DNA of 64,000 nt from Giardia intestinalis (Eukaryota). The notes beneath the pieces were generated by a model, which was given only the letters and a program-made list of their open reading frames with translations, was not told where the DNA came from and did not search any database. The stretch lies in assembly GCA_000002435.2 (NCBI GenBank), contig CM018791.1; one strand, written 5' to 3'. Within the stretch, counting starts at the first letter, position 1; each line of letters starts with the position of its first letter. Below, one piece after another: positions 27,215 through 58,075 of the stretch. The translations under genes and the position numbers were made by a program.

Positions 27215-28354
27215 TTAGTCGGCAAGAATTGTCCCTGGAGCAGTTAGTATCGACGACGTACCATGTTCAGACGACACTGTGGGGATACGCTTTGACCTTT
27301 CTGATGATGTTAGCCCAAACTGGGACACCAGCTCTCGATTTAACGTACAGCAGTTTCCCACTGGCTTCCCACAAACACAAAGAAGATCATGTTGGATCTC
27401 ACTGGAGAGCATTGGAGATTGAGCAGGTTGTGTCTTCCGTAGTGCTTCGTTATGAGAAATGACCCGCCTATACGTTCTCCATATATCGCAGACTGTATTC
27501 AGCTTCAAGATTTGCTTTGCATAGATACGCTGGCTAGGCTCTGGAGCAAGCATCTGAGAAAGAAGCGAGATTATATTGGCATCTTTACCGGTCAGTAGAG
27601 GGTCACTTTTGAAGGAGGGCGGTGCTGAGATGGAGTGTAGAATCTCTGACAAGCACGTCCCTTGAATGTACGGCACTCCGAGATAGAACTCATACATGAA
27701 GCATCCTAAGGACCAGATGTCTGAAGCCCACGTAGCTTGCTTACCCATCAAGATCTCTGGAGAAAGGTAGCGGGCGGTATTTGCAGACTGGCAATCAACG
27801 TTATTCGTTTCAATGTATTTGGACATTCGTATCTGTGCCACCGTTACCACTCCCAGATTATCCAGATAAATGCCAGCAGGGTCTAGAGAGCGCAGAATGA
27901 CTGTACTGATGTCCGGTGCATTTCTCTTAGACGGACTATGAAGATAAGCAAGAAGTTCCGCCAATTGCATCAGGACGAGCCAAAAGGTCTGCTTACTTGG
28001 GCTGGAAAATGTAGGGAGCTGATAGCTTCCTGTTCCAAAACGTAACCGTTGGTGCATCTTTAAACTATCTGTGCGCATGTCCTTCATGACCAAAAACGAT
28101 GAACCTATAGAGTCTCCCTCAGCTATCTCCAAATATTCCATCAAATTTGGATGTCTAAGTGTGCGCGTCAGTGATATATTCAAGTGCAACTGCGAGAGCA
28201 ACGAGAGTGAGAGCTTTGAGTAAATCAATCTCTTACACACACACGGTCTATAAGTATACCGATCAACAGCTAAATATAGAAACCCATGAGCTGTCTTCTG
28301 GCAAACGCTCCCCAGCTCGTACCGTTTCCCTATTACGATGCTAGTTTTCATCAT
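27215..28354 (-). CDS. NEK-like kinase paralog (pseudokinase-like) with C-terminal CVCGKPVGNCC cysteine motif
   Basis: ATG ATG verified at 28354..28349. IGKRYELGSVCQKTAHGFLYLA...CVCKRLIY...SDIWSLGCFMYEF. No HRD/DFG motifs. Confidence 0.7.
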   Translation of the reverse strand: MMKTSIVIGKRYELGSVCQKTAHGFLYLAVDRYTYRPCVCKRLIYSKLSLSLLSQLHLNISLTRTLRHPNLMEYLEIAEGDSIGSSFLVMKDMRTDSLKMHQRLRFGTGSYQLPTFSSPSKQTFWLVLMQLAELLAYLHSPSKRNAPDISTVILRSLDPAGIYLDNLGVVTVAQIRMSKYIETNNVDCQSANTARYLSPEILMGKQATWASDIWSLGCFMYEFYLGVPYIQGTCLSEILHSISAPPSFKSDPLLTGKDANIISLLSQMLAPEPSQRIYAKQILKLNTVCDIWRTYRRVISHNEALRKTQPAQSPMLSSEIQHDLLCVCGKPVGNCCTLNRELVSQFGLTSSERSKRIPTVSSEHGTSSILTAPGTILAD

Positions 28355-28418
28355 CTGCCCACACAGTTTTTGAAAACCGTAGGCTTAAAGCATTAACAAG
28401 GGATCAAAACAAATATCT

Positions 28419-30206
28419 TTACTGCATACTAGATTGAATAGATGAGATGTGCATAGATGACGGTTGTTCTCTATACCTATTGGGTCTGCCCTCATAAACG
28501 TCTGCTGGTTGCACAGAATTGTAAGAAATCTGTGCCTTGTATGATTGAATAGGGGAAGTGGCGACAGATTGCTTAAGAAAGTTGGGGCTGCAATGCACAG
28601 CATTGTGCTGTGTTGATGGCTTAACGAGTTTTCTAGCACTTGGGTGCAAATGCTGAGAAGATATGAATCCGTGTGTGTTAGGAGGAATGATCCTGTCTCG
28701 AATGAGCTCTAAGGATGGAACATCAGTTATAATATCCTGAAGCGTTACTGGAGAAGGCGTTCCAACCCCCTGATCACACATGTACTGATCCTGAATGGCA
28801 GGTTGATGCATAGTCTCAGGCTTATCGTCGACAGTGATTTCCTGAGAGTGCCTGCTCGGGAATGAAGACTGTTGTACCGGCTGTTCGTTCATTGATACCG
28901 AGCCACTTGAAGAAAAGCTAGCAGTGGGACTGAAACTAGAGATAGAGCTGCCTTGAAGCAGGTTTGCATTGTCGCTAAAGACTGATGGTTGCTCACTTAT
29001 CTGATTATACTGGATAGGGCGCCTAGCTCCGAGGGGCCGCGTGCGTGGCTCTGCAAACACTTTGCTGAGCATGTAGCGACGATGATGCCCTTTGCCCTGC
29101 TTAGATATCCAGTTGTTAACAATAGTGTAAGTATTCCCAGATGAATTTGCAACACGCGTATAGGAAACATTATGTGAATACGGGGGTTCTGCAGCAAGTT
29201 TCTTTAGGTACCGGCGATAGCCACAGCAATCGTCCATATTTCCTCCACATGCACAGGTACTCATTCGGGCTATACGTGGTTTGCGCTTATAGTAATGGAC
29301 CCGCAAGAGCTCCTTATATGTAATCATTAGCTCAGCTATTGGGGGGCGTGCAATAAGGTCATCGGTGCTGGGCCGCCTTTCTGGGCGTGGATTCAAAAGG
29401 TCTGTAATGAAGTCTGACAACTTTCTTGAATACTTAAACTTTGTGTTTGCTGGATTGGTTGTTAGTTCAACCGTTATGTTGGGAGGTGCAAGACTTAGTT
29501 CTAGCACTTGCTGTCTTGTCCAGCCAGTAACATATGGTCTGCGCATGCATAGCTCAAAGAGCGTTGCGCCTAGTGACCAGATGTCCATAGTGTGGAAAGG
29601 CCTAGCACCTGCTAAGAGCTCTGGGGCATTATAACAAGGGGTCTCGTAGTCAGCTGACTCCGGAAATATATCAAAACGTGCTAGTCGAACTGTGTCCACG
29701 AGAACAAAGCCCATTTCGCTAATATATATGCAAGACGGCCTCAAATCCAGGAGAACTTTGTCTTTTGTGGCTGTCTGAGATGAGTAGTCTGCCAAGAACT
29801 TAATGAGTTGAGTGGCGATCATCCAAATGGTGTCTTCGGAGAAAAAGAAGTCGTCCATAATAGCAGTATCCAACTGGGTTCGCAGGTCTCCGTACTTATG
29901 TAGATCTACAAGAGCAGCAAGGTTTCCACCTTTTTGGTCCAAGACTACGCTGCTGTATTTCATCTGTCCCGGAAATGTAGATTTCTGGGCCAAGGCTGCT
30001 TCGTAACGAATGAGCTCAATCTGGTGGCTTGTCAGCTTTGCAAGTGGAAACTTCTTACAGCTAAATTGCCGCTGCGACGTGATGTCTTTCATACAGAATA
30101 TGTGTGAGTATTTGCCACGAAAAATCTCAGACTCTTGCCGATACCTTCCTAAGAGAAGTTGGTCCTCGGCAGCAGGCTGTGTGGCAGGATAGTTGACTGC
30201 TAACAT
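28419..30206 (-). CDS. NEK-like kinase paralog (pseudokinase-like) with CACGGNMDDCC motif and S-rich tail
   Basis: ATG verified at 30206..30204. LLGRYRQESEIFRGKYSHIFCMKD...SCKKF...DIWSLGATLFELC. Confidence 0.75.
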   Translation of the reverse strand: MLAVNYPATQPAAEDQLLLGRYRQESEIFRGKYSHIFCMKDITSQRQFSCKKFPLAKLTSHQIELIRYEAALAQKSTFPGQMKYSSVVLDQKGGNLAALVDLHKYGDLRTQLDTAIMDDFFFSEDTIWMIATQLIKFLADYSSQTATKDKVLLDLRPSCIYISEMGFVLVDTVRLARFDIFPESADYETPCYNAPELLAGARPFHTMDIWSLGATLFELCMRRPYVTGWTRQQVLELSLAPPNITVELTTNPANTKFKYSRKLSDFITDLLNPRPERRPSTDDLIARPPIAELMITYKELLRVHYYKRKPRIARMSTCACGGNMDDCCGYRRYLKKLAAEPPYSHNVSYTRVANSSGNTYTIVNNWISKQGKGHHRRYMLSKVFAEPRTRPLGARRPIQYNQISEQPSVFSDNANLLQGSSISSFSPTASFSSSGSVSMNEQPVQQSSFPSRHSQEITVDDKPETMHQPAIQDQYMCDQGVGTPSPVTLQDIITDVPSLELIRDRIIPPNTHGFISSQHLHPSARKLVKPSTQHNAVHCSPNFLKQSVATSPIQSYKAQISYNSVQPADVYEGRPNRYREQPSSMHISSIQSSMQ

Positions 30207-30688: not shown

Positions 30689-32290
30689 CTAGCCACCACC
30701 CTTGAGAGTGTGACTAGATCGCACATGCTGTATTGGGGACATTTCCACCACTACCGGAGAAACTGACTTCTGCGAGTGCCGACGACTCTGTTGTCGGTCA
30801 TTTTCATAGGATACTGACTCTAGGACAACAGGATCTTTTGAATAATGAAACGTCTTCTGGCCGGCATACATTAGGCTGTCAACAGATGGGTGAGGCCGTA
30901 ATGACATCGAAAAACCCTGAGTGTCTGGAGACACCTTTTTGTGCTGCAGAACATTGTCGAACGACTCCTTGACAGATAGAGATTGTGTGTTAGGGTCATT
31001 TGTCCTATCACTCTTTGGAAGAGAGTCGGTAGTAGCCCCCTTCCAGTACCTTCTGTCAAAAGGAGAAAAGTTTCTAACATCATCGTCACGATACACGTTA
31101 CTTCCTTTGTTGTCGCCTGTGCATCCATGCGGAAGGCTGAAATCCATAATGCTATAGTCGTTTTTAGCGTGTATTTTCGGATCTTTATTCATGGCTGTAA
31201 CAGTTAGCTGAGACTTAGAAGAAGATATTGGCTCCATAGGCCGTGTCTCAACGTGCCAAGTAGCAGCTCCTTTCTTCAGTGACTCTAGGGGTACTTGCCT
31301 ATCTGTGTGGTCGGCTAGACCATAAGAAAGTGCCTCCGCCGCGTCTGCGTAATTCCTGTGCACAAACGTTGGACAAAAACAATCTGTTTGAAGATCACAG
31401 CATACCTTTCCGTTTCCGCCACAGGAACATACTCCGTTCCCGGCACACACAAGCATTTCTTTATAATGCTGCAACGTGGAATTCTTTAGTAAGTATTCCG
31501 GAGACGCTCGACTGCTCGCTATGGGATCCAGCATAGTACTAAGCAGATCCTGCATCTCACGTGAATATCCCCTCAGGTTAAAGGTTGGTCTCGCATCTTT
31601 AATAAGCCCAAACAGCTCGCTGACATCCAGCAGCTCATAAAGAGGCCGCAAAGTACACATTTCATACGCAATGCAGGCCACAGACCATACATCTGACTTG
31701 ATAGACCAGTTCTTGCCCCCAATTACTTCTGGCGCATGATAGCACGGTGTAAGCTTTGGTTTATTTGTCCGAAAGTGTTCATACTTACCTAGATGAAAGC
31801 GATGGAGCTGAAAAATACCGTATTTGGAGACAAATATATTATCAGGGCGAATAACGTAATTGTGTGGACAAGAGAGGCTCTCGATATTAGAAGAACCGTG
31901 CAGAAGCACAAACAAGTCTAGCATAGAGGCCAAAAATATCCAAATGCTTGCCTCCTCAAATGGCTTCTGTATTGTTTTCCGGTGCCTAATTTGCTCGTAG
32001 AGGCTCTGTGATTTATAGTAAGGCATAACAGCAAAATAGCCAGCCCACTGCTTTTCGAAAAATGTATCCAAATAGGGCACGAGATACTTATTCCTGAGGC
32101 TGCGGGCCATGAGAAGTTCCGCTTGAAAGGCTCGAGCCAACTCCTCTGTGGGTAAAGGAAGAACAAACTTCTTGACAACCACGGGCCCCGCTTCCTCCTG
32201 CGTACTATCCACTGCAAGCATGATGACAGAACAGCGAGACCGCGCAATTTGCCCGAGAATCTCATAGCGATTGGAAAGGACGGGGTGCAT
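30689..32290 (-). CDS. NEK-like kinase paralog (pseudokinase-like) with CSCGGNGKVCC motif
   Basis: ATG verified at 32290..32288. SNRYEILGQIARSRCSVIMLA...VVKKF...SDVWSVACIAYEMCTLRPLY. Confidence 0.75.
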   Translation of the reverse strand: MHPVLSNRYEILGQIARSRCSVIMLAVDSTQEEAGPVVVKKFVLPLPTEELARAFQAELLMARSLRNKYLVPYLDTFFEKQWAGYFAVMPYYKSQSLYEQIRHRKTIQKPFEEASIWIFLASMLDLFVLLHGSSNIESLSCPHNYVIRPDNIFVSKYGIFQLHRFHLGKYEHFRTNKPKLTPCYHAPEVIGGKNWSIKSDVWSVACIAYEMCTLRPLYELLDVSELFGLIKDARPTFNLRGYSREMQDLLSTMLDPIASSRASPEYLLKNSTLQHYKEMLVCAGNGVCSCGGNGKVCCDLQTDCFCPTFVHRNYADAAEALSYGLADHTDRQVPLESLKKGAATWHVETRPMEPISSSKSQLTVTAMNKDPKIHAKNDYSIMDFSLPHGCTGDNKGSNVYRDDDVRNFSPFDRRYWKGATTDSLPKSDRTNDPNTQSLSVKESFDNVLQHKKVSPDTQGFSMSLRPHPSVDSLMYAGQKTFHYSKDPVVLESVSYENDRQQSRRHSQKSVSPVVVEMSPIQHVRSSHTLKGGG

Positions 32291-33870: not shown

Positions 33871-36540
33871 CTACGAGACATCGCACAGACAGATGCTATT
33901 TTCCGCTATTGGCTCGGCGTATTCCATTACCTCAGACTCTATATATACCGCAAATGGTATTTTCAGGGAGCCTTCATCGATGGGTAAATCGTAGTCTGCG
34001 CCATTAGGTTCTACATCATAGCTTAAGTCCTTAATATAGTACGGAGGCATTGGTAGTGGTTGTTGACAAGTTGATGATAAGTTGTCCAGGGGAGCGGGGG
34101 CAGCAAGGGGCTCCTCCGCGCTCTCCTCGCACTCCGGGGTGGCGGCCCTCTGGTAGCTCTCGTCCTTCGCCGGGTCCAGGGGAGCGGGGGCAGCAAGGGG
34201 CTCCTCCGCGCTCTCCTCGCACTCCGGGGTGGCGGCCCTCTGGTAGCTCTCGTCCTTCGCCGGGTCCAGGGGAGCGGGGGCAGCAAGGGGCTCCTCCGCG
34301 CTCTCCTCGCACTCCGGGGTGGCGGCCCTCTGGTAGCTCTCGTCCTTCGCCGGGTCCAGGGGAGCGGGGGCAGCAAGGGGCTCCTCCGCGCTCTCCTCGC
34401 ACTCCGGGGTGGCGGCCCTCTGGTAGCTCTCGTCCTTCGCCGGGTCCAGGGGAGCGGGGGCAGCAAGGGGCTCCTCCGCGCTCTCCTCGCACTCCGGGGT
34501 GGCGGCCCTCTGGTAGCTATCTTCGCAGTATTTTGCAGCTAAGACAGAAGGCTCATCTCTGACCTGTTCAACTGTAGTAACAGTTTCTATAACCTCATAG
34601 CGGTTATAAATGTATTTATCATCAGTCTTTTCAGAAGGTGTTCCAGCCTGTCCTTCTGCTTCATACAAATCTCCCTCAGTAATAGGCGTTGGTTCCACCT
34701 TTGATGTAGCAGGCATGTGGTATGTGGTGTTTAATACTTGTCCATTCTCATCATAAATGGCTTTATCGCTAGCATTACTGTTCATCAATTCTGCTTCTTC
34801 TTCTCTTGAAATAATCTTTTTAAGAGGCATCGGCAAACTGCTTTCCCTGGTGGTCACTGGCTCTTCCTCACGCGCGAATAGAACAGGCTTTGTATTCGGT
34901 CGAGTATTAGTGGAATATCCAACTATACTCTTAGAAACATAGTTGGGTTCAATAATCGGATGTATGCTCTTGTCTGAATCTCCACAATAAAATTCTGGCA
35001 AGGGCTGGCAATAGGATTTGAAGCATGTCATAGAGCGTTTTTGGGTCATGCTGTCCCGATCATCTACCTGGTACGCTTCCCAGTCATCAGATGTAGGATA
35101 GACAGGCACTATCACCAAAGTTTTTCGTTGCTCGTTGACAAACTTTAAAATAGTGCCAAAGTCCAAAAGAGTGTCTTGCTCTGCTGTTATGGCATCCAAC
35201 AGCTGCTGAGGAGTCAGAAGAGGGACGGGAAGATCAGTAATATTAGTGTAACAGCCCTTTAGAGCATGAAGATGGGCATCCCAGCAGATTGGCAAATCAT
35301 CTCCAGCAAACACGGCATCAGCTTGTAACCCCAAAAGAAAGTAAAGGGATACGTCCTCATCGGACAAAGAGGACGTACGTGCTACACTGCTACATACCAG
35401 GTCACTGTCTAGAGGGCCTTGATCAACTCCATTCCGTGGGTGCTTCTGGTCGTACAGATCAAACAAGTCGCCAGTCTCATCACAGTTTATACATTGATCA
35501 TAGAAGATGTTAACAACTTCTTGTATCTCCGGAAGAGTCATCTCAGGCATAAACTTGAGAATCGCAAACACAAGTGCCGTTGTTTCCCGTGTATAGAAGC
35601 ACTCTTGTTTTAGATACATAAACCACGAATCCTCTGCCTTGTCTGATATTTTGATATTCGGGAGGCAGACAGGCTTGTCACAAAGAAACCTGCACGCGTT
35701 GGCAAGAGATGATAACTGAATGGTCAGCACTTTAAACTTAGTAAGAAGCTCAGTCAAGGCCTTTCTGCTGCCTTTCCCCGAACTCAGAAGAGCAGCCGTC
35801 TCATTCTTACAGATAATCCGCTCTTGAAGTAGCGTCCTAAAGAGTTTGCGGTATTCTAAAAGCGTATGCATCCTCTTTTGATACTCAACCGTGAGCGTAG
35901 AGCTTCTGTTGAGCTGAGAATACGCATAATCACGCTCTGAATAGGGGATTTCAAGAGCCTCCCACATACGAGTGAGTGATGCAACAGCATTGTGCGCCCT
36001 CAGAGCCATGGATGCCCCTTGGCCCGTCCTTGGCAAGAATTGGTTCCCACTTCGGGAGACAAGAGAGGTAGAGCCCCGATCCTTTGTCATGAACTTCTCT
36101 GACTTGTTGAGATTGTCTGTATCGTTATAGTATCGTGTCTGTGGGGAACAAATGCGTTCCAAATAAGGAGAATATTCCACCTGCTGCTCGGTAACAGACG
36201 CTTTTGGACTCCCGTGGCCATGCTTTGTAGATTTACGATAAGATTTGATGTCTGTATTTGGAGACTTTTGTAGTGGGCGGGTAATGGAGCGTGAGCGGAC
36301 ATTTGCCATGGTTGCCCCTTCTAGGTGCTTGCTCTGAATGCGGAGCATCTCTGCTTGCGACACACCTCGCTCCGTAGTCTTGGCCATCTCGACAATCCGG
36401 GCATTGTTCGGATTTGAAAAGAATGCCTTGAGGTGGGGGTCGCTTTCTGCATGGTATGACGGTGGTCTGTCACCAATTCTAGTGGTAAACTCTGGCTGCA
36501 ATCTTTCGCGTCGCGGTGCGCGGTGGTCAACAAAGCTCAT
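33871..36540 (-). CDS. coiled-coil protein, paralog A of the 58227..59714 gene; contains 5 x 30-aa acidic tandem repeats; weak MAP65/Ase1/PRC1-like WxxLxIPxxER motif
   Basis: ATG verified at 36540..36538. Blocks shared with paralog B: MWEALEIPYSERDYA / LWKALDIPPLERNYA, SGKGSRKAL / AGKGSKSVL, YFLLGLQA / NFLLGLQA, LLTPQQLLDAI / LLSPEQILDAV, LVIVPVYP / VVLVPVIP. Confidence 0.6.
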   Translation of the reverse strand: MSFVDHRAPRRERLQPEFTTRIGDRPPSYHAESDPHLKAFFSNPNNARIVEMAKTTERGVSQAEMLRIQSKHLEGATMANVRSRSITRPLQKSPNTDIKSYRKSTKHGHGSPKASVTEQQVEYSPYLERICSPQTRYYNDTDNLNKSEKFMTKDRGSTSLVSRSGNQFLPRTGQGASMALRAHNAVASLTRMWEALEIPYSERDYAYSQLNRSSTLTVEYQKRMHTLLEYRKLFRTLLQERIICKNETAALLSSGKGSRKALTELLTKFKVLTIQLSSLANACRFLCDKPVCLPNIKISDKAEDSWFMYLKQECFYTRETTALVFAILKFMPEMTLPEIQEVVNIFYDQCINCDETGDLFDLYDQKHPRNGVDQGPLDSDLVCSSVARTSSLSDEDVSLYFLLGLQADAVFAGDDLPICWDAHLHALKGCYTNITDLPVPLLTPQQLLDAITAEQDTLLDFGTILKFVNEQRKTLVIVPVYPTSDDWEAYQVDDRDSMTQKRSMTCFKSYCQPLPEFYCGDSDKSIHPIIEPNYVSKSIVGYSTNTRPNTKPVLFAREEEPVTTRESSLPMPLKKIISREEEAELMNSNASDKAIYDENGQVLNTTYHMPATSKVEPTPITEGDLYEAEGQAGTPSEKTDDKYIYNRYEVIETVTTVEQVRDEPSVLAAKYCEDSYQRAATPECEESAEEPLAAPAPLDPAKDESYQRAATPECEESAEEPLAAPAPLDPAKDESYQRAATPECEESAEEPLAAPAPLDPAKDESYQRAATPECEESAEEPLAAPAPLDPAKDESYQRAATPECEESAEEPLAAPAPLDNLSSTCQQPLPMPPYYIKDLSYDVEPNGADYDLPIDEGSLKIPFAVYIESEVMEYAEPIAENSICLCDVS
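34080..34525. repeat. five near-identical 90-bp tandem repeats inside the paralog A CDS, encoding KDESYQRAATPECEESAEEPLAAPAPLDPA
   Basis: 'ggagcggggg' recurs at 34091, 34181, 34271, 34361, 34451 (90-bp period = 30 codons). Diverges at ~34518. The alternative-frame ORFs 34023..34466, 34031..34492 and 34050..34562 are artefacts of it. Confidence 0.9.
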
Positions 36541-41954: not shown

Positions 41955-42003
41955 GCCGCCAGAGTAAACGATGAGTGAACGGTGAGTAAACAGAGAGTAA
42001 ACG

Positions 42004-47991: not shown

Positions 47992-48566
47992 TCTCTGTCT
48001 TGTGAGTGGCAATTCCATTAAGAAAGCTTACCCTTTACTTGTGGTTGACCCCGGAAGCTCCGCGCTATCACAGTAGTGGTCAATATATAATTGTAGACAC
48101 TCACTGCTCCATGATGGAGAGCACTGTATCGGTAGGGTTGCCGGTTCTTGCACAATCGGCAACCACATCTTTGAGGCACCGATCCCAGCAGTCCATAACG
48201 ATGACGATGGAGTGGGCGTCTCTGAGCACCTGGTAGTGCCTAATGACGCCTGGGTGTGAGCGTCTGGAAATGGTGACCAGCGCGACCCAGTGGCCTCCGT
48301 GGGCTTCCCACTCTGAGCTTTGGATAGCTACCTATCACATGGACAGTACCAAAGCTGCCCACATCAAGCACCCCTCCTCGCATCGATGCAGCTCGTCGGC
48401 GGGCACAGGATATCGAGTGCACCGTCCCCGGCCATGACGGTATCAACGGCACTGTGCAGAGCACGCTCGGGGGCAGGGGAGCGGCCACCCCTGCTCCCGG
48501 TTGCAGGCTGGCTGGCGAAGTATACGAGGCGCACCCGCTTGTCGGCAGCTGCACCACTAGTGACGC

Positions 48567-48573
48567 GTTTACT
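48567..48573 (-). promoter_or_regulatory. putative polyadenylation signal AGTAAAC two nt after the VSP stop (TAG GT AGTAAAC)
   Basis: + strand gtttact at 48567-73 is AGTAAAC on minus, immediately 3' of the TAG stop (48584..48582). Matches the Giardia AGTRAAY consensus. Confidence 0.5.
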
Positions 48574-48581
48574 ACCTAAGT

Positions 48582-50489: not shown

Positions 50490-51149
50490 TGTGGCTCGAC
50501 GCTCTGTCACACAGAGATATAGCAGCTCCGTTCGCCAGTCCACCCCTTCATGGCATCTGCCTGTGCTGCATGACGCACTGGCAGGGAAGGCCCTCCACAG
50601 GCCTGCGGAGAAGCGGAGTCGTATCGATTCCACTCTTATGACCTGCCGCTCCGAGCTTCTGTGACTGGCCGGCTGTGAGATGGATTGATCAGTATAGGTC
50701 TCCCCCTTATGCTGCAAGGCGTACCATAGTAGTGGCTACACGGCGGCCATGCTTCGCTCTTCGCTGTGATGTGAGGGCTTCCATTGGCGTCAGCGACAGG
50801 CGGAGCTGGCTCGTCCTATCCCAGTCCTGTAGTGTCACGTAATCCCTAATCCGTCGGAACTTTCGGCACCATACGGCATATGGCTGCCCAGCCACAGAAA
50901 GGGTCGTCTTAGCGGTAGGCCGTAGGTAGGATGCACAGGAGCAGGCCTACACTCGCCCCAGAATCTATGTGCTAGCTTCGGTGGCCTCGCACTCTGCACA
51001 CCAGGCCGCTCCCGTCTAAGCGCGGCCAAAGTGAAAGCTGGGTCGAGAGGGGTCTATTCGCTGACCGCTGGACCGCGCCATCCGGTGGGCCCAGTAGTAC
51101 AACACACCGTGACAAAGTGAATCCAGCCCACCGGACCATTTAAAAAACT

Positions 51150-52898
51150 ATGAGTGGTACATACAGCCTGGAGGATATGGCGGGGTACCATTCGATCTAT
51201 GATGATGTTACTCTCCCACCAATCACCCTCACATACTTGCCCACTGGTCAGCAAATCACAACTAAGTCTGAAATACCTGTGGGCCAGGCATTGAAGGTGT
51301 TTGATCCCGAAATCAACGCCATAGCCGCTCTCGTTAACAATGAGATCTTAAGCCTCAATGAAAAGTTGGACATAAGCAGCACAATAGAGCCTATATTCTT
51401 CAAAGGCGAGTATGCGCGCCAGATCTTTTGTGACTCTTTCACGGTGGCACTGCAGGCTGCTGCAACTAAGCTCTTTCGCGGGCAGGCTCTTGAATGTTGC
51501 TACATCATGCAGAATGCTAGGTTTTTCAAGTTCACCGACATGGCCCTTACTCGTGACGATCTAGACGCTCTAAAGGCTTTATTGATCGACATCTCAGACG
51601 CTGACCTCAAAATCTCGCGTACTACTGTTTCGTTTAACGACGCACTTCACTACCTAAAGGAAATTCATCATAAGGGCTCTTGTAACCTGCTTACGTCTAT
51701 CAACACGTCAAAGGTTTCTATGGCAAGAATATACTCCAAAGAGCTTAGTATTGATTTCAGAACCCTCTGGATTTCTACGCTCGCACCTTCTACCGGCGTC
51801 TTAGGAAAGAATCTATGGACGATGAAGCTTCACGATGCAGGGATACTTGTTCATCTCACCGATGACTTTGTCAATGTTAAGCCTCCCAATGCTAAGCTTG
51901 AGAGCCAACTTGCTCCAATCATGATGGCCTATAAAAACTGGTCATCTGTCCTTCGGGTGCCGAATGTAGCGGCTTTGAATGAACTAATTCCTAACAGGAC
52001 AAGAATTCGTGAGTTCATCAACACGTGCGAGTTCAGACACGAGAAGCACATTTCTGAAGTAGCTAAATCTATCCCAGATGATGTCCGCTGCATCTTTGTA
52101 GCTGGCCCCAGCTCGTCATCTAAAACCACGTTCAGCAACAGGCTCTCTGTGCATCTCCGTACTCGCAACTTCCAGCCCATCCGCGTCAGCCTAGATGACT
52201 ATTATATGAATCCGGATAATATCCCCCGTCTAGAGAACGACCCAACAAAGCCAGATTTTGAACATATAGAAGCGCTGGATCTTAAGAGGCTGAGCGAAAA
52301 CCTTCACGGATTACTTAATGGAGAAGAGGTGACCATGGCCCATTATGACTTCAGGACGAAGACTGCAGGAGACGGCAAGAAGCTGAAGCTTCCGTCGGGC
52401 GGGGTCCTCATAATTGAGGGCATCCACGCTCTGAATGACCGCATAACCTCTGCTGTTCCTGCTGATAAGAGGTGTAGAATCTTTATACAGCCAGTGGGAA
52501 ACTTGATCTGGGACGAGCTGCGTCTGTTTGAAAGCGTGGATACACGCCTACTTCGCAGAATGTGTCGTGACTTTGTTTTCAGGAACCGCAGCGCAGATGG
52601 CACATTGGACTTTTGGCCAAGCGTCAGAGCTGGCGAAGAACGCTGGATATTGTCGAACCAGAGTAAGTGTGAGATATACTTCAACTCTTCAGTGCTGTAC
52701 GAGCTCTTCACGCTCAAGGTCTTTGCAATTCCACTTCTCAAGTCAGTGCCACAATCTAGCCGCAACTTCCCATCGGCCCGTCGTCTCCTGCGCCTTCTGG
52801 AGCCATTTCTCCCCATACCCGTTGAGCTAACTCCAGAGATTTCCCTTAGTCGCGAGTTTCTTCCATCTGGAAGCATCTTCGAAGACTTCTTCTTCTAG
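51150..52898 (+). CDS. uridine kinase / phosphoribulokinase-family P-loop kinase with N-terminal TGS-like domain
   Basis: ATG at 51150. N-terminal beta-grasp-like segment (TLTYLPTGQQITTKSEIPVGQALKVF...ALVNNEILSLNEKLDISSTIEPIF). P-loop IFVAGPSSSSKTTFSNRL. LIIEGIHALNDR. Confidence 0.75.
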   Translation: MSGTYSLEDMAGYHSIYDDVTLPPITLTYLPTGQQITTKSEIPVGQALKVFDPEINAIAALVNNEILSLNEKLDISSTIEPIFFKGEYARQIFCDSFTVALQAAATKLFRGQALECCYIMQNARFFKFTDMALTRDDLDALKALLIDISDADLKISRTTVSFNDALHYLKEIHHKGSCNLLTSINTSKVSMARIYSKELSIDFRTLWISTLAPSTGVLGKNLWTMKLHDAGILVHLTDDFVNVKPPNAKLESQLAPIMMAYKNWSSVLRVPNVAALNELIPNRTRIREFINTCEFRHEKHISEVAKSIPDDVRCIFVAGPSSSSKTTFSNRLSVHLRTRNFQPIRVSLDDYYMNPDNIPRLENDPTKPDFEHIEALDLKRLSENLHGLLNGEEVTMAHYDFRTKTAGDGKKLKLPSGGVLIIEGIHALNDRITSAVPADKRCRIFIQPVGNLIWDELRLFESVDTRLLRRMCRDFVFRNRSADGTLDFWPSVRAGEERWILSNQSKCEIYFNSSVLYELFTLKVFAIPLLKSVPQSSRNFPSARRLLRLLEPFLPIPVELTPEISLSREFLPSGSIFEDFFF

Positions 52899-52979
52899 CC
52901 CCGCGTGTGGTGGTCTTACTTGTTTACATTCAATCCTTGAGTGAATTTGGGTGGTTGAGGTCTGATTAAAGATTCAAAA

Positions 52980-55898
52980 ATGACGCGGTTAGCGACTCTC
53001 ATGTCTCGGTATCAGCTTCTAAGCAAGCTGGGCAAAGGATCCAGGAGCACGATATACCTGGCTCAAGACAATGAAACAGGCAATTATTTGGCATGTAAAG
53101 AACTTTGTTATCGCGACTGGGATTCGTCGGAACTGAGCCTTCTAGAACATGAGATAATGGTAAATAGGGCGCTAGTTCATCCTAACATTATGCGGTATCA
53201 ATATATTCTTAACGATAAGGAGAACTGTCGCTATTACCTCTTGATGAGTTACTTTTCTAAATCAGATTTGGGGTACCAGCTCGTCAAGCGTAAGGAAACA
53301 CATGCACGATTCAAGGAGGCAACCATATGGACTCTCATGGCGCAGTTGTATGATGTGCTTCTTTATTTGCACTCTGTTGATAAGCGCCACAGTACTGATA
53401 TCTCCATTGCTCTATTAAGGGATTTCAGACCATCCAATTTCTTTCTGTCTAGTCGCGGTATTATTCAAATTAAATCTTTGCAGCACCTCAAGCTTCTCGA
53501 ATTTGGCTCTGTAGAGGCCGAGCCGTTTGCAAGCAAGCTTCCTCCACTGCTCGTACCATATTTGGCACCCGATGTTTTGCAAGGAAACTATTACAGCGCA
53601 TCATCTGATATCTGGTCTCTAGGATGCCTTCTCTATGAGTTGTGTACATTTCAGGCCTTTGTTACAGGGCGTACACCCAACGATGTCCTCCAGGCGCTAG
53701 CAGGCGCTAGACACCCCATTGTTTTGGACCATTATTCACAAAGCTTATCACACGTTCTCAGCCTTATGCTCCAGCCCAATTCCCGAGATCGCATTACCCT
53801 GAAGCAGTTGGGGTCGTTTCCACAGCTAAAGTCGGCCTGGGAGCAATATAAGGCATACATCACCCACACAAGGAAACCTGTGGGTGATCCTATACCCTTA
53901 CTGTTCCATTGCAAGTGCGGTGGGGATGGCCATAGTTGCTGCCTGGATGCTCGCCGCAAGAATGGCCTTCCAGATACATATATTTCGCGGAGAGACCTCC
54001 AGAGTGATGCAGTGACTCCGGCTAACCTCTGGCAACAAAGCACCTCTTCTCGCTTACTAGCTTCCAAGCGCCACAAGTCTAACGGCGAATTCGAGGTTGT
54101 CCACGTGAATCAGCGTGCAGAAGACGAGGATGGAATTAAATATGAACGCTTGGAATCAGATGCTCTTGCGCTGGAAGATAGATTGGGTTACACACCGAAT
54201 GCAACGGGTGTTGTATTTACACAACCGGCCATACAGGCAATCGATCTGAACAGTACACGCCAATCTCCATCGAATACCACCAAGGAGTCATACTTTGCAA
54301 CTCATGGGCGCTACCCCAAAGGGGTTGTGAACCGCCTAGTCTATAGCAATGAAAATAGCCGTATGGAGGGCGGCGGGGCGCTGCAAACTCAATTTGAATT
54401 GGTAGAAAAAGTCATTGAAGACTCTCCTTCTATTAGAAATCCGTCCAGCGCGAAATATATAGAATATGGCAATTTTGCAGGCCGCACTATGCTCAACACA
54501 ACCATCGGTGGTCAAGGAAACATGACAATGATGGGAGGAGTTCTTGGCCCTGTGAATGTAGATGAGATTTTCAAGGGCGAGGAGGTTGAGACACAGGATA
54601 GGGCATGCAGTCCGATTATCGTTAGTGTGCATTCTCCCAACTACACTAGAACAGAGCTTGACAGCCTGATGACAAACGATGGTGTCACACGCCATACTAG
54701 AAAGCATAGAAACGAGTTCGGTGATACAATCAGCACCTGCTGGCAGCCTTCTCTAAAGAGCAATATTTCTTCTGTAAGGACTCTTGACTTGGATGAAAAG
54801 GTTGCTTCAATTAACATGCCTTCGACACCAAATCACCGTCTAAGGGACAGTAGCTATGATATTTATCCCACATTAAATTCTAGCGGAGGTATGGCAGAAT
54901 CTCTATATGCCAATTCTCTTTCTCCGCCGAAGAAAAACAAAACCTCTATCAATGATAGCCATGACTCTAAGATCACTAGCCATATTTTCTCGCCGTCCTA
55001 CAAGGCATCCTTTTATGATCCAAAAATGCTATCCACACCGAAGGCTTTCGAGGCATTTAGCTCTGATGAAGAAGGACAGCATAGTGATGTGCCGCAAGAG
55101 GTAATTAACTACCGTCGAAGCCCCCCTGCATCCTTATATGAAGAGCCTTTACGCTTGGATTACCACAGGCACCCAGTACAGGTGCCTATTGTTTATACTA
55201 CTGATGATACGGTTTCATACATTGATATTCTTAAAAGCACACAATCCACAACCAGAGCAGTTGGTCCTAATAAACCGGAAAAGCTGAAGAAACAGAAGAA
55301 GTCCAAAGAACCTACCCAGCCCCCTGTAATATCATTTGAGGACGATTGCTCTGTTGGTAGACTACCTACGCCTGATAGGACAATGATAAAGGTAAGCCAC
55401 CGGGATTCTATCAGAGAGCCAGGAAACGATGATCATCTTATTTCTGCGTATTCTCGATGGTCGTCGCCTTCAATTACTCCACAACCTCCTGCAGCACCCT
55501 GCACATATGAACATTATCATGCATCGTATGTCCCACGTAATAAGCTAACGCCGCCGAAGACAATACAGGTTCCGCTCCCAGGCGACTACACTCACTATGC
55601 CTTTTCATCAAATAAGATTGAAAAATCATCAGCATTAGCCAAAGACATACATGGTGCGCATGAGCCTACGTCTACCAACAATCTAGCACTGTCCAGGAAC
55701 AGCATTGCACATGTTTATGAGACGCATTTTCTGCCCCATGAAAGGTATGTTTCTAAGCATGAGTTACAAAGAACACACCCTGTCACGTTTTCTATGTTAA
55801 ACACTACCACTAACGGGACAAGAAGCGGAGCAGAGGGGTTGAGAAATACGCTATCCACTGACAGAGGTGTTGGAAGCTCAAGTCAAGTCACTTTGTAA
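52980..55898 (+). CDS. NEK-like kinase paralog (pseudokinase-like) with CKCGGDGHSCC motif and ~650-aa low-complexity tail
   Basis: ATG at 52980 (alternative at 53001: MSRYQLLSKLGKGSRS). LACKELCY...SDIWSLGCLLYELCTF. RDFRPSN for HRDLKPxN and EFG for DFG. Confidence 0.75.
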   Translation: MTRLATLMSRYQLLSKLGKGSRSTIYLAQDNETGNYLACKELCYRDWDSSELSLLEHEIMVNRALVHPNIMRYQYILNDKENCRYYLLMSYFSKSDLGYQLVKRKETHARFKEATIWTLMAQLYDVLLYLHSVDKRHSTDISIALLRDFRPSNFFLSSRGIIQIKSLQHLKLLEFGSVEAEPFASKLPPLLVPYLAPDVLQGNYYSASSDIWSLGCLLYELCTFQAFVTGRTPNDVLQALAGARHPIVLDHYSQSLSHVLSLMLQPNSRDRITLKQLGSFPQLKSAWEQYKAYITHTRKPVGDPIPLLFHCKCGGDGHSCCLDARRKNGLPDTYISRRDLQSDAVTPANLWQQSTSSRLLASKRHKSNGEFEVVHVNQRAEDEDGIKYERLESDALALEDRLGYTPNATGVVFTQPAIQAIDLNSTRQSPSNTTKESYFATHGRYPKGVVNRLVYSNENSRMEGGGALQTQFELVEKVIEDSPSIRNPSSAKYIEYGNFAGRTMLNTTIGGQGNMTMMGGVLGPVNVDEIFKGEEVETQDRACSPIIVSVHSPNYTRTELDSLMTNDGVTRHTRKHRNEFGDTISTCWQPSLKSNISSVRTLDLDEKVASINMPSTPNHRLRDSSYDIYPTLNSSGGMAESLYANSLSPPKKNKTSINDSHDSKITSHIFSPSYKASFYDPKMLSTPKAFEAFSSDEEGQHSDVPQEVINYRRSPPASLYEEPLRLDYHRHPVQVPIVYTTDDTVSYIDILKSTQSTTRAVGPNKPEKLKKQKKSKEPTQPPVISFEDDCSVGRLPTPDRTMIKVSHRDSIREPGNDDHLISAYSRWSSPSITPQPPAAPCTYEHYHASYVPRNKLTPPKTIQVPLPGDYTHYAFSSNKIEKSSALAKDIHGAHEPTSTNNLALSRNSIAHVYETHFLPHERYVSKHELQRTHPVTFSMLNTTTNGTRSGAEGLRNTLSTDRGVGSSSQVTL

Positions 55899-55954
55899 GC
55901 CACACCATATGTCAATAAGTGAATGGCTGCTTGGAAATCATTTCTGTTATAAAA

Positions 55955-58075
55955 ATGGCAAATCAGATTCTGGCCGGTGTCCTTCAATTAGAGCAGGTCC
56001 TGGCCACCGGAGAACACAGTGTCATATATCAGTGCGCTGACTTACGGACTGGGAGTACATACGCATGTAAGAAGATCTGTTATTCACGATTTGATCAGCT
56101 TAAAGAAGACGCTCTTAACCACGAACTTGCTGTCGTGCATAGAGCTAATCATGGAAATGTGGTTGCATACTTAGATGTTATACATGATAAACCATGCCAA
56201 ACATATTACATTATTATGCCTTTTTACAGATTTTACGATCTAGGAACGCAAATTTGTAAGAAAATTGAAGAGGGCGGTCGTTTTGAAGAGGCATGCGTTT
56301 GGCTAATATTAGTGCAGTGTCTTCTTGCTCTAGACTACCTTGACACGGAGCTCTCTGACGTCGACGCAGATGCACGTCCCACAAATAAGCTTGTCTTCGG
56401 AAACATTCGGCCCACCAGTATCTATGTTGATTTGCAAGGGAATACGTACATAAATACATTTAGATTGTCAAAGTATCCTTCGCTTTTGAATGGCACTGCA
56501 GCTCCCAAGTTAGCACCATACTGGGCTCCAGAGCAGCTCATGAACTATTCACATAGTAGTAAGATAGAGATTTGGTCGCTAGGTTGCATAGTTTACGAAA
56601 TGTGTCTCTTGCACAGTTTGTTCAGAGGCACATGCGAAGACGTATTAGAGCAAATACAGAAGCTAAGGCGACCTGTCAAGCTGCCTAATTACTCAGCACA
56701 GTTGGAGGAGGTAGTTAACAGCCTTCTAGAGCCGTCTCCAGACAAACGTCTCTCTGCAGCAGAGCTCCTCAAGCATCCGACAATCTTGGAGTACAAGCGC
56801 TTTTATGATGAGCAGATAGTTTCTAGGAAGCTTGCCTTAGGGCACCAGCTTCCACGGATGGGTCTTTGCAAAATCTGCGGCGGGAATGGATTAGATTGTT
56901 GCGAAATAGTTCGACTTGCAGTTGCCAACAGCAAAAGGCTATCTTATATAGATGAGCATGGGAATCTTGTTTACGTAGATACTCTTGCAGAGCAAAAGGC
57001 AGGGATCGCCCGTGTAGCCAATCAGCGAACTATGGACCGCATTTATTCTGTGATTAATCCAGATTCTCGGAAGGCAAATTACTTCAATATTCAGCCAGTG
57101 ACGAAGGATATGATTCGAGCTAAGCAACAAGCCAGCTATGCATGGAAATCTGCACAAGATGAAGGTAGAACTAAAGGTGAAAACGCCCACTCTATTGTAA
57201 TGAATTCAATAAAAGATGGATACAAGTACAACGAGCAGCGCAACTATTTCCCCAAAGAAAGATATCGAGACCCAAACACATATCCGCTTACTAATCTAGT
57301 TCCAGTAACGCTGATCCAATCTGCAGAGCATAAGCAAGGAACGAGATTGCAGTTAGCTTCTAGACAACGGAACGAGCTGGATCAATGGAGCTATGAGGGA
57401 CTAGACACAATAAACTTCAAGACGCAATACTCAGAGCAGCCGTCATGGGCATACTCCGGCAACACAGATATGAAGGATGTACCCAGTATCGTCTCTAATG
57501 CAGAGGAGCGAGCAGTTAGGCAAGATAATAATGATGCACCTTCTTATAAAGTAGGGCATAGTAGCGGCTTTTCCAGCACTATCGGCAATTCGTCTTTTAT
57601 CGACGAGCTTCTCTTCCAGGTAAGGTCCGTATCTCCACCTAAGCCGGTCTGTAAGGACTTCGTTCCGCTAGTGTATGCGAATTCTTCGACGCCTCCTCCC
57701 AGCTATCAGTCGATGAACAGTGTCCCAGTAACAAAGGTAACTACAGAGTACGAGCTCTTCCAACCGTCTATTCATACACTACTAAATCCGTCAGTGAACC
57801 ATGCCAGTCCAGCAGACACATCGGTACAGAGCGTAGCGCCTGTGAACATTTCGGGGCCCAGCGCCCACAGAGATGGGCCACAAGCGTTGCAGGCATCAGG
57901 ACTAGAGCCTAAGTCGTCTCTACTCGTGTCCAGCGCTGTACCATCTAAGGCATCCACAATCTACAAGAAGGAACCGCTCTCCACTTCAGTCACTTCAGTA
58001 TACAAAGACTCTGCGCTCTATGTCTCATCTGTTAACCCAGCTAGCGAGTATATGCCAGAACAAAAGCAAAAGTAG
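55955..58075 (+). CDS. NEK-like kinase paralog (pseudokinase-like) with CKICGGNGLDCC motif
   Basis: Track start 55919 is GTG; the first in-frame ATG is 55955 (MANQILAGVLQLEQVLATGEHSVIYQCADL). ...YACKKICY...EIWSLGCIVYEMC. 56 bp after the previous kinase stop. Confidence 0.75.
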   Translation: MANQILAGVLQLEQVLATGEHSVIYQCADLRTGSTYACKKICYSRFDQLKEDALNHELAVVHRANHGNVVAYLDVIHDKPCQTYYIIMPFYRFYDLGTQICKKIEEGGRFEEACVWLILVQCLLALDYLDTELSDVDADARPTNKLVFGNIRPTSIYVDLQGNTYINTFRLSKYPSLLNGTAAPKLAPYWAPEQLMNYSHSSKIEIWSLGCIVYEMCLLHSLFRGTCEDVLEQIQKLRRPVKLPNYSAQLEEVVNSLLEPSPDKRLSAAELLKHPTILEYKRFYDEQIVSRKLALGHQLPRMGLCKICGGNGLDCCEIVRLAVANSKRLSYIDEHGNLVYVDTLAEQKAGIARVANQRTMDRIYSVINPDSRKANYFNIQPVTKDMIRAKQQASYAWKSAQDEGRTKGENAHSIVMNSIKDGYKYNEQRNYFPKERYRDPNTYPLTNLVPVTLIQSAEHKQGTRLQLASRQRNELDQWSYEGLDTINFKTQYSEQPSWAYSGNTDMKDVPSIVSNAEERAVRQDNNDAPSYKVGHSSGFSSTIGNSSFIDELLFQVRSVSPPKPVCKDFVPLVYANSSTPPPSYQSMNSVPVTKVTTEYELFQPSIHTLLNPSVNHASPADTSVQSVAPVNISGPSAHRDGPQALQASGLEPKSSLLVSSAVPSKASTIYKKEPLSTSVTSVYKDSALYVSSVNPASEYMPEQKQK

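What the first reader, a model, noticed from the sequence alone, without database searches (positions are those of the whole stretch)
27215..58075. Recurrent CxCGG-x4-CC cysteine knuckle 25-45 residues after the kinase domain in 5 of 7 NEK-like genes
The motif variants are CVCGKPVGNCC (27215 gene), CACGGNMDDCC (28419), CSCGGNGKVCC (30689), CKCGGDGHSCC (52980) and CKICGGNGLDCC (55955). Each follows the ...LL.HP... end of the kinase domain and a short Y/K-rich helix. It is absent from the 22314 and 25656 genes. The conservation of four Cys with a GG turn suggests a small metal-binding or disulfide knuckle specific to this NEK subclade. I do not recognise it as a named domain.
Basis: seen in the sequence. 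Interest (0 to 1): 0.6.

Follow-up and report, generated by a model that had tools for sequence, protein, structure and literature searches.

The report
Shrunken zinc knuckle behind dead Giardia kinases
Five inactive NEK-type kinase genes of Giardia intestinalis carry a strictly conserved four-cysteine motif just after the kinase domain that looks like a shortened DnaJ-type zinc-binding knuckle; it is real and apparently undescribed, but it is a variant of a known kind, not a new one.

Summary
C-x(1,2)-C-G-[GK]-x4-C-C occurs exactly five times in the six-frame translation of the window, each time 18-42 residues after the Pfam kinase domain of a NEK-like gene. About 0.002 matches are expected by chance. 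The window is Giardia intestinalis WB. The genes are GL50803_13963, 5554, 5553, 8218 and 16251, all 'Nek-Unclassified' and catalytically degenerate.

The paralogs share only 23-32% identity. Yet the four Cys are among only 16 invariant columns of a 20-sequence alignment. They are kept in every ortholog recovered, with synonymous codon changes only.

The closest paralog outside the window, GL50803_12148, and its G. muris ortholog carry a canonical CxxCxGxG-x2-CxxCxGxG pair at the same place. The C2-x6-C3 spacer has the same length. The window motif is therefore best read as a compacted DnaJ/anti-TRAP-type Cys4 zinc knuckle.

Metal binding is inferred, not shown. AlphaFold2 gives pLDDT 41-56 there, and Pfam matches are below threshold. 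Palmitoylation, a redox switch or an intermolecular metal clasp remain possible.

The motif is missing from two nested paralogs and from the syntenic G. muris gene. I found no description of it in the papers I checked. Verdict: new variant of a known kind, moderate interest.

The parts
27347..27379 (-). Cys motif CVCGKPVGNCC of GL50803_13963 (GK302), residues 326-336
   Evidence: Regex scan. Gene identity. Conserved in assemblages E and B and in a further lineage, as CVCGKPVGNCC or CVCGKLMGNCC.
29223..29255 (-). Cys motif CACGGNMDDCC of GL50803_5554 (GK289), residues 318-328
   Evidence: Regex scan. Orthologs have CACGGNMDDCC, CACGGNMDNCC or CACGGDKNECC.
31397..31429 (-). Cys motif CSCGGNGKVCC of GL50803_5553 (GK266), residues 288-298
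   Evidence: Regex scan. Orthologs have CSCGGDGKACC or CSCGGDGNKCC.
53910..53942 (+). Cys motif CKCGGDGHSCC of GL50803_8218 (GK203), residues 311-321
   Evidence: Regex scan. The assemblage B ortholog has CRCGGDGYSCC. AlphaFold2 pLDDT here is about 50-56.
56867..56902 (+). Cys motif CKICGGNGLDCC of GL50803_16251 (GK198), residues 305-316. Its first half is a perfect CxxCxGxG repeat.
   Evidence: Regex scan. Identical in assemblage B and in P0200. AlphaFold2 pLDDT is 41-45.
27215..28354 (-). NEK-like pseudokinase gene GL50803_13963; Pfam kinase domain about 27503-28285
   Evidence: Pfam Pkinase E 7e-20, residues 24-284. XP_001704160. 'Dead Nek - missing D166, D184' in Manning Table S1.
28419..30206 (-). 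NEK-like gene GL50803_5554; Pfam kinase domain about 29346-30143
   Evidence: Pfam Pkinase E 3.5e-16. XP_001704161. Table S1 says K, D, D present, but my regex finds no HRD or DFG, and in the aligned catalytic-loop stretch (LLDLRPSC) Cys appears to stand at the Asn position.
30689..32290 (-). NEK-like pseudokinase gene GL50803_5553; Pfam kinase domain about 31481-32200
   Evidence: Pfam Pkinase E 5e-19. XP_001704162. Listed as dead.
52980..55898 (+). NEK-like pseudokinase gene GL50803_8218; Pfam kinase domain about 53010-53810; post-kinase helix about 53820-53867
   Evidence: Pfam Pkinase E 4e-32. XP_001704182. 'Dead Nek - missing D184'. Helix 281-296 in the AlphaFold2 model.
55955..58075 (+). 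NEK-like pseudokinase gene GL50803_16251; Pfam kinase domain about 55988-56782; post-kinase helix about 56777-56836
   Evidence: Pfam Pkinase E 5e-27. XP_001704183. Listed as dead. Helix 275-294. The model's best PDB matches are NEK2, then NEK7.
22314..25631 (-). Related NEK-like gene without the motif; sister of the canonical-knuckle paralog GL50803_12148
   Evidence: Pfam Pkinase. No motif. Scores 182-202 bits against leave-one-out profiles of the motif genes. NJ bootstrap 95% with GK250.
25656..27209 (-). Related NEK-like gene without the motif; sister of GL50803_13963
   Evidence: Pfam Pkinase. No motif. NJ bootstrap 78% with GK302.

Best explanation
The motif is a compacted form of a DnaJ/anti-TRAP-type cysteine knuckle. 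The canonical form is two adjacent CxxCxGxG repeats that together supply four thiolates to one Zn2+.

In the five window genes the first CxxC is kept (GL50803_16251) or shortened to CxC (the other four). The six-residue spacer is kept. The second CxxC has collapsed to CC.

The knuckle sits in the flexible tail after a catalytically dead NEK-like kinase domain and a conserved helix.

I think it still chelates one metal ion, most likely zinc, through its four cysteines. That would tie part of an otherwise disordered tail into a small rigid knot. The knot would serve as a docking or self-association point for these pseudokinase scaffolds.

**Shown:**
- the motif exists and holds the same position in each gene;
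- it is under purifying selection;
- it is restricted to one Giardia NEK subclade;
- the nearest paralog carries a canonical CxxCxGxG pair at the equivalent site.

**Inferred:**
- homology of the compact and canonical forms;
- metal binding;
- the docking or oligomerisation role.
For: **1. Non-random and positional.** There are five matches against 0.002 expected, all at the same place after the kinase domain.

**2. Selection.**
- In a 20-sequence alignment of six orthogroups, only 16 of 423 columns are invariant, and four of these are the knuckle Cys.
- Between assemblages, substitutions inside the motif fall only in spacer positions.
- Cys codons show at least 10 synonymous TGT/TGC swaps and no replacement.
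- Between G. intestinalis GK250 and its G. muris ortholog the linker is 15% identical, and within the motif only the four Cys and one Gly are shared.

**3. Link to a known zinc motif.**
- The best single-kinase-domain hits outside the five orthogroups among 1.84 billion representatives are P0207 (236.6 bits) and P0213 (223.9 bits).
- These are GL50803_12148 and a G. muris-like ortholog. They carry CPACNGTG(S/C)DCQQCGGTG and CQRCSGISPHC(D/E)VCNGRG at the same site.
- MAFFT, without guidance, aligns CxC with CxxC and CC with CxxC. The C2-x6-C3 spacer is the same length in every sequence.
- Three of the five window motifs keep C-G-G-[ND]-G, which is the C-x-G-x-G signature.

**4. Family-level hits.** The GK250 tail gives weak hits only to CxxCxGxG zinc families: DnaJ_CXXCXGXG (E 0.012), Anti-TRAP, BSD2_CRD and DUF5351. 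In the PDB it weakly matches anti-TRAP (3lcz, 2bx9) and the DnaJ-like EMB2737 chain.

**5. Geometric precedent (my own knowledge, not tested here).** CxC ligates one Zn in Hsp33. An adjacent Cys-Cys pair ligates one Zn in the Btk motif.
Against: - No experiment or tool here shows metal binding.
- AlphaFold2 does not fold the motif confidently: pLDDT is about 50-56 with 5 sequences and 41-45 with 20.
- The window tails give no Pfam hit at all. The GK250 tail scores 16.3 bits against a DnaJ_CXXCXGXG threshold of 32.7.
- Tail-only profile-profile comparison of compact against canonical forms is weak: hhalign P = 0.03 over 18 columns.
- Shortening both CxxC knuckles destroys the classical knuckle turn, so the coordination geometry, if any, must differ.
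- The motif was dispensable in two nested paralogs (22314, 25656) and in the syntenic G. muris gene P0248.
- The direction of change, canonical to compact, is not resolved by the star-like tree.
Confidence: 0.5

Rival explanations
1. S-palmitoylation cluster. After compaction the four cysteines no longer hold a metal. They are acylated by Giardia DHHC enzymes and anchor the pseudokinase tail to a membrane, as in the Cys clusters of SNAP-25 or the C-terminal CC of yeast casein kinase Yck2.
For: - A dense Cys cluster lies in a region AlphaFold2 treats as flexible.
- A short predicted helix rich in basic and hydrophobic residues follows directly in four of five genes: CC-GYRRYLKKL, CC-EIVRLAVANSKRL, CC-LDARRKNGL, CC-TLNRELV.
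- Giardia has DHHC acyltransferases and many palmitoylated proteins, and its palmitoyl-proteome is undefined (PMC4109852).
Against: - Acylated clusters normally tolerate changes in spacing and in Cys number. Here all four Cys, the following Gly and the six-residue spacer are fixed across very divergent paralogs.
- The homologous site in GK250 is a textbook zinc pattern.
- No membrane-association data exist for these genes.
Confidence: 0.17
2. Intermolecular or polynuclear metal clasp. CxC and CC pairs usually ligate different metal ions. Two tails (eight Cys) could share a Zn2 or Cu(I)-thiolate cluster and so dimerise pseudokinases, taking the place of the coiled coil that dimerises other NEKs.
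For: - The CxC and CC spacings are typical of clustered sites such as metallothionein, Cox17 and CCS (my own knowledge).
- A metallothionein chain is among the weak PDB hits of the GK250 tail (6grv, E 0.7).
- The motif is not docked on the kinase domain in the models.
- Anti-TRAP, the closest single-site relative, is itself oligomeric (my own knowledge).
Against: This is purely inferential. The ancestral canonical form fits a mononuclear site. To my knowledge Giardia has little copper biology.
Confidence: 0.12
3. Redox-sensitive thiol switch. The cysteines, with or without zinc as in Hsp33, are oxidised under oxygen or nitrosative stress in this microaerophile. That changes the tail conformation and the pseudokinase's partners.
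For: - Four closely spaced thiols, including a vicinal pair.
- A CxC plus second Cys pair arrangement recalls the Hsp33 zinc centre (my own knowledge).
Against: There is no direct evidence. The conserved Gly residues and the fixed spacer point to a folded knuckle rather than to reactive thiols alone. This reading is compatible with the main explanation rather than exclusive of it.
Confidence: 0.08
4. Neutral relic or chance. The motif is simply inherited from a common ancestor of tandem duplicates and has no function.
For: - The genes lie in two clusters that arose by duplication. The flanking genes 33871-36540 and 58227-59783 are paralogs.
- Two nested paralogs and the G. muris gene P0248 lost the motif without losing the gene.
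Against: - The paralogs are only 23-32% identical, and the surrounding tail is unalignable between them, yet the four Cys are invariant.
- Only synonymous changes occur at the Cys codons.
- The chance expectation is 0.002 matches.
Confidence: 0.03

Closest known systems
DnaJ/Hsp40 cysteine-rich domain (CXXCXGXG repeats; Pfam PF00684)
   Same: It shares the C-x-x-C-x-G-x-G signature. This is perfect twice in paralog GL50803_12148, perfect once in g55955 (CKICGGNG), and one residue short in g52980 and g30689. Four Cys are available for one tetrahedral site.
   Different: - DnaJ has four repeats forming two zinc centres in a hairpin between the G/F region and the C-terminal domains. Here there are at most two repeat-equivalents, following a kinase domain.
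- The second repeat is reduced to CC.
- Scores are below Pfam's threshold, or there is no hit at all.
Anti-TRAP (Pfam PF15777; PDB 2bx9, 3lcz) and plant DnaJ-like zinc-finger proteins (BSD2 CRD, PF25436)
   Same: These are small modules in which neighbouring CxxCxGxG repeats build one Cys4 zinc site. They are the only families, besides DnaJ and DUF5351, that the GK250 tail weakly hits.
   Different: - The spacer between the two Cys pairs is 10 residues in the anti-TRAP chain aligned, against 6 here.
- These proteins are free-standing bacterial or plastid proteins, not kinase appendages.
- None is known to me with the CxC...CC compaction.
Giardia 'Nek-Unclassified' pseudokinases (Manning et al. 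2011, PMC3218828)
   Same: The five genes are GK198, GK203, GK266, GK289 and GK302 of that catalogue. All have 1:1:1 orthologs in WB, GS and P15, and four are scored dead. The AlphaFold2 model matches NEK2 and NEK7 best.
   Different: - That catalogue describes GK266, GK289 and GK302 as chromosomal neighbours 'not specifically related in sequence'. It lists ankyrin, coiled-coil and RING as accessory domains and does not mention this motif in the text or table I searched.
- Here the genes form a profile-defined subclade, scoring 165-250 bits against 142 bits or less for generic NEKs, and they share the knuckle.
Palmitoylated cysteine clusters (SNAP-25 linker, Yck2 C-terminal CC)
   Same: A compact Cys cluster lies in a flexible segment next to basic and hydrophobic residues, and it is attached to a kinase-fold protein, as in Yck2.
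   Different: Those clusters have no fixed spacing and no conserved Gly. Here the spacing is rigid and traces to a zinc-type pattern.

Membership tests
DnaJ-type CXXCXGXG zinc-finger domain (PF00684) | Sequence reaches the Pfam gathering score (32.7 bits) | tested here: not met
   The window tails (g52980, g55955) give no hit. The GL50803_12148-type tail (P0207) scores 16.3 bits, E 0.012.
DnaJ-type CXXCXGXG zinc-finger domain (PF00684) | Repeated C-x-x-C-x-G-x-G units | tested here: inconclusive
   - Paralog GK250 has two perfect units.
- g55955 has one perfect unit (CKICGGNG).
- g52980 and g30689 have C-x-C-G-G-x-G.
- g28419 and g27215 have lost the second Gly.
- The second unit is reduced to CC in all five.
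DnaJ-type CXXCXGXG zinc-finger domain (PF00684) | Four repeats forming two zinc centres, placed between a J domain/G-F region and the C-terminal substrate-binding domains | tested here: not met
   At most two repeat-equivalents are present. The context is a kinase domain plus a disordered tail, with no J domain.
Single-site Cys4 zinc knuckle (anti-TRAP-like) | Four Cys in two closely spaced pairs, conserved as a set | tested here: met
   The four Cys columns are invariant in 20 sequences of six orthogroups, and the C2-x6-C3 spacer is constant. Only synonymous codon changes occur.
Single-site Cys4 zinc knuckle (anti-TRAP-like) | Stoichiometric Zn2+ bound by the four thiolates | not testable with these tools
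   This needs ICP-MS, PAR or Co2+ spectroscopy on recombinant protein. AlphaFold2 pLDDT of 41-56 is uninformative.
Anti-TRAP family (PF15777) | Pfam gathering score (32 bits) | tested here: not met
   13.7 bits for the P0207 tail and none for the window tails.
NEK (NIMA-related) kinase family | Kinase domain closest to NEKs by sequence and fold | tested here: met
   - Pfam Pkinase in all seven genes.
- The best non-Giardia sequence hits are mostly NEK or NIMA-related (NEK6-subfamily, Nek11).
- The Foldseek top 25 are all NEK2, followed by NEK7 among other kinases.
- Classified as Nek in Manning Table S1.
NEK (NIMA-related) kinase family | Intact catalytic residues (VAIK Lys, HRD Asp, DFG Asp) | tested here: not met
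   My regex finds no HRD or DFG in any of the five. Table S1 scores four as 'Dead Nek'. GK289 retains K, D, D only nominally.
S-palmitoylated cysteine cluster | Thioester-linked acyl chains on the cysteines and membrane association | not testable with these tools
   No palmitoyl-proteome of Giardia is available (PMC4109852). No localisation data were found for these genes.

The most novel reading that the evidence does not exclude
The compact C-x-C-x6-C-C element is a new kind of minimal metal or redox module. In this reading, a zinc knuckle lost three residues and now works as an intermolecular clasp or a zinc-release redox switch. It would assemble or disassemble pseudokinase scaffolds in response to oxygen or thiol stress in a glutathione-free microaerophile.
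Probability: 0.12. Interest if true: 0.6.

Novelty: new variant of a known kind. Interest (0 to 1): 0.4.

Why it matters
Giardia devotes about 70% of its kinome to NEK-like proteins. [quoted passage not shown]

This motif gives six of the 'Nek-Unclassified' genes a shared, testable feature outside the kinase domain. It ties together genes that the original catalogue called unrelated neighbours. It also suggests simple experiments: zinc content, Cys-to-Ser mutants and acylation assays.

It is also a neat example of how a classical CxxC...CxxC knuckle can shrink to CxC...CC while all four ligands stay under selection. The reach is limited, because the motif is confined to one small clade of one parasite genus and its function remains inferred.

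Tried and rejected
**1. Word-indexed homology search.** Run with the five-gene profile, it was swamped by generic kinases and returned orthologs of only one gene. It also failed to return one of its own query sequences. Negative results from that tool were therefore not used.

**2. AlphaFold2, run twice.** Runs with 5 and 20 aligned sequences modelled the kinase domain and the post-kinase helix well. The motif stayed at pLDDT 41-56, so there is no structural verdict.

**3. Tail-only hhalign, compact against canonical.** It gave only P = 0.03 over 18 columns, too short to be decisive.

**4. Pfam on the window tails.** No hit.

**5. Literature.**
- I found no description of the motif, no localisation and no palmitoylome.
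- The only mention of any of these genes is that GL50803_12148 is an inactive Ala-gatekeeper NEK.
- Supplements of the 2025 reannotation are not held.

**6. G. muris TNJ28592.1.** This 2411-aa multi-kinase protein was examined as a possible fused ortholog of the tandem array. It is not syntenic and has no knuckle.

**7. The dragonfly CSCVGDCC hit (P0329).** Dismissed as chance.

**8. Whole-proteome regex scan.** It could not be run because no Giardia proteome is available offline. The partial substitutes were:
- six-frame scans of 225 kb of Giardia DNA;
- pentamer searches in Manning's kinase table, where CGGNG, CGGDG, CGGTG and CNGTG occur only in the known members.

**9. A looser pattern, C.{1,2}C.G.{4}C.{0,2}C.** It also matches VSP genes, so only the strict form is diagnostic.


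Full report
**Source and genes**

The window is from Giardia intestinalis WB (assemblage A). Five of its ORFs are identical to XP_001704160, XP_001704161, XP_001704162, XP_001704182 and XP_001704183, all named 'Kinase, NEK', on a 1,973,847-bp chromosome record.

Manning et al.'s Table S1 gives their identifiers:

| Window gene | GiardiaDB ID | Manning ID |
|---|---|---|
| 27215-28354(-) | GL50803_13963 | GK302 |
| 28419-30206(-) | GL50803_5554 | GK289 |
| 30689-32290(-) | GL50803_5553 | GK266 |
| 52980-55898(+) | GL50803_8218 | GK203 |
| 55955-58075(+) | GL50803_16251 | GK198 |

All five are 'Nek-Unclassified' with 1:1:1 orthologs in strains WB, GS and P15. Four are scored 'Dead Nek'. GK289 is scored 'K,D,D present', but my regex finds no HRD or DFG triplet in it, and in the aligned catalytic-loop stretch (LLDLRPSC) Cys appears to stand at the Asn position.

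An AlphaFold2 model of g55955 matches human NEK2 best (top 25 hits), with NEK7 next among other kinases.

**The observation**

A six-frame regular-expression scan finds exactly five matches to C.{1,2}CG[GK].{4}CC, at 27347-27379(-), 29223-29255(-), 31397-31429(-), 53910-53942(+) and 56867-56902(+). The looser C.{1,2}C.{6}CC gives none elsewhere. Residue-shuffled six-frame translations give 0.002 matches on average.

The motif begins 18-42 residues after the Pfam kinase match. It follows a conserved helix with a nearly invariant Tyr. The 22314 and 25656 genes lack it. The only correction is that the distance is 18 residues in the 30689 gene, not 25 or more.

**Conservation**

- The five paralogs are only 27-30% identical to g52980 over kinase plus tail, yet the four Cys and the first Gly are invariant.
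- Syntenic loci from assemblage B (L001, L003, L005) and from a more divergent Giardia assembly (L004) keep the motif in every ortholog. Changes fall only in spacer positions.
- Assemblage E (P15) orthologs keep it too for the two genes recovered, GK289 and GK302.
- At the DNA level there are at least 10 synonymous TGT/TGC differences at the Cys codons among orthologs, and no replacement.
- Between assemblages A and B, the motif plus the next 20 residues are about as conserved as the kinase domain in four of the six orthogroups compared. The rest of the tail is 56-73% identical.

**Distribution**

Leave-one-out profiles show that the seven window NEKs form a group. Members score 165-250 bits, against 142 bits or less for generic NEKs.

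An exhaustive HMMER search of 1.84 billion representatives with the five-gene profile returned each of the five orthogroups with the motif. No other protein among the best 150 has the strict motif.

The best-scoring single-kinase-domain hits outside the five are P0207 (236.6 bits) and P0213 (223.9 bits). They score above the orthologs of the motif-less window genes 22314 and 25656. At the same position after the kinase helix they carry CPACNGTGSDCQQCGGTG and CQRCSGISPHCDVCNGRG, that is, two adjacent CxxCxGxG units.

P0207 belongs to the orthogroup of GL50803_12148 (GK250, XP_001704522, A8BW54). That gene is a dead NEK on the same chromosome record, outside the window. P0213 is 87% identical to a named G. 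muris NEK, P0397, which has CQRCSGISPHCEVCNGRG. The canonical form therefore predates the split of G. intestinalis and G. muris.

**Link between the two forms**

MAFFT on 20 sequences, without guidance, puts a one-residue gap in CxC against CxxC and a two-residue gap in CC against CxxC. That makes four invariant Cys columns out of only 16 invariant columns in 423. The other twelve are core kinase-fold residues.

The spacer between the second and third Cys is six residues in every sequence. Three window motifs retain C-G-G-[ND]-G, the C-x-G-x-G signature.

The GK250-type tail gives sub-threshold Pfam hits only to CxxCxGxG zinc families: DnaJ_CXXCXGXG (16.3 bits against a cut-off of 32.7), Anti-TRAP, BSD2_CRD and DUF5351. 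It also gives weak PDB hits to anti-TRAP and a plant DnaJ-like chain. The window tails give no Pfam hit.

A tail-only profile-profile comparison of compact against canonical forms is weak, at P = 0.03 over 18 columns. The homology argument therefore rests on position, spacing and the relatedness of the kinase domains. I put it at about 0.75.

**Phylogeny and losses**

A bootstrapped neighbour-joining tree of kinase domains gave these supports:

| Grouping | Bootstrap support |
|---|---|
| Eight G. intestinalis orthogroups + G. muris P0248 + three domains of G. muris P0198 | 94% |
| GK250 + the 22314 gene | 95% |
| GK302 + the 25656 gene | 78% |

Deeper nodes are unresolved. Knuckle-bearing genes are never monophyletic, so the two motif-less window genes are best read as losses.

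The G. muris locus L011 is syntenic with window 39.6-58 kb. It carries Asn synthase, CAF1, myotubularin-related and uridine kinase genes, followed by a NEK. That NEK, P0248, has a Q/P-rich tail with no knuckle. Conservation therefore does not extend to this G. muris positional ortholog.

A scenario with one compaction and three losses is compatible with the supported nodes. The direction of change is not proven.

**Structure prediction**

AlphaFold2 models the kinase domain and the post-kinase helix well. The motif stays at pLDDT about 50-56 with 5 sequences and 41-45 with 20.

It is followed by a short predicted helix and, in g55955, a hairpin. The models do not dock the knuckle onto the kinase domain. 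This is uninformative about metal binding.

**Interpretation**

The best-supported reading is a compacted DnaJ/anti-TRAP-type Cys4 knuckle that still binds one metal ion, probably zinc. It would form a small rigid node in the flexible tail of pseudokinase scaffolds.

From my own knowledge, CxC (Hsp33) and vicinal CC (Btk motif) can each ligate a single zinc. The compact geometry is therefore not excluded.

The rivals are:
- S-palmitoylation, favoured by the basic and hydrophobic helix right after CC;
- an intermolecular or polynuclear metal clasp;
- a redox switch;
- a neutral relic, strongly disfavoured by the selection evidence.

**Literature**

The 2011 kinome paper lists ankyrin, coiled-coil and RING as NEK accessory domains. 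It notes GK266, GK289 and GK302 as neighbours 'not specifically related in sequence'. I found no mention of this motif in its text or in the held part of its kinase table.

The 2025 reannotation states that these NEKs have no known motifs.

No localisation, interaction or acylation data were found for the six genes.

**Verdict**

The motif is real, selected and clade-restricted, and I found no earlier description of it. It is a shortened variant of a known zinc-knuckle pattern in a new context, behind dead NEK kinases. It is not a categorically new domain. Metal binding and function remain to be tested. Interest is moderate, at 0.4.

Noticed in passing
window 7707-11675 and 21066-23106, flanking the N run 11719-21065: A 51-bp tandem array (about 80 and 40 copies) lies on both sides of the assembly gap. 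It runs into the 3' coding end of the NEK gene 22314-25631, where it encodes 17-residue repeats (MPGQVGPSTHLVDRGNS). The long multi-frame ORFs at 7.7-11.7 kb are artefacts of this repeat.
   Followed up: partly
window 33871-36540(-) and 58227-59783(-): The two genes of unknown function that flank the two NEK clusters are paralogs (34% identity over 307 residues, E 1e-49). This points to an old segmental duplication that included NEK genes.
   Followed up: partly
L010 10001-17236 (G. muris CM016926.1): G. muris TNJ28592.1 is a single 2411-residue ORF with at least six NEK-like kinase domains in tandem. The linkers are very short and there is no Cys knuckle. It is not syntenic with the window's tandem NEK array.
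   Followed up: partly
L011 (G. muris CM016925.1) against window 39680-58075: Gene order is conserved between G. muris and G. intestinalis here: histone, Asn synthase, CAF1, myotubularin-related, uridine kinase, NEK. G. muris has one NEK where WB has two (GK203, GK198), and no VSP gene is called between the myotubularin-related gene and uridine kinase.
   Followed up: partly
window 48582-50717(-): A variant-specific surface protein gene with the canonical CRGKA C-terminus lies between the conserved housekeeping block and uridine kinase. The assemblage B locus has two VSP genes upstream of uridine kinase.
   Followed up: no
window 33871-36540(-), C-terminal part: Five near-identical copies of a 33-residue repeat (DESYQRAATPECEESAEEPLAAPAPLDPAK) occur in the predicted protein.
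   Followed up: no
GL50803_12148 orthologs (P0381, P0367, P0383): In assemblages A, B and E the spacer of the canonical knuckle holds a fifth Cys (CPACNGTGCDCQQC). Two other Giardia lineages have Ser or Thr there.
   Followed up: no
window 31340-31460 (GK266 tail): GK266 has extra cysteines around the motif (LVCAGNGVCSCGGNGKVCCDLQTDCFC). CAGNGVC looks like a partial duplicate of the C-GGNG unit. The two downstream Cys are not conserved in assemblage B.
   Followed up: no
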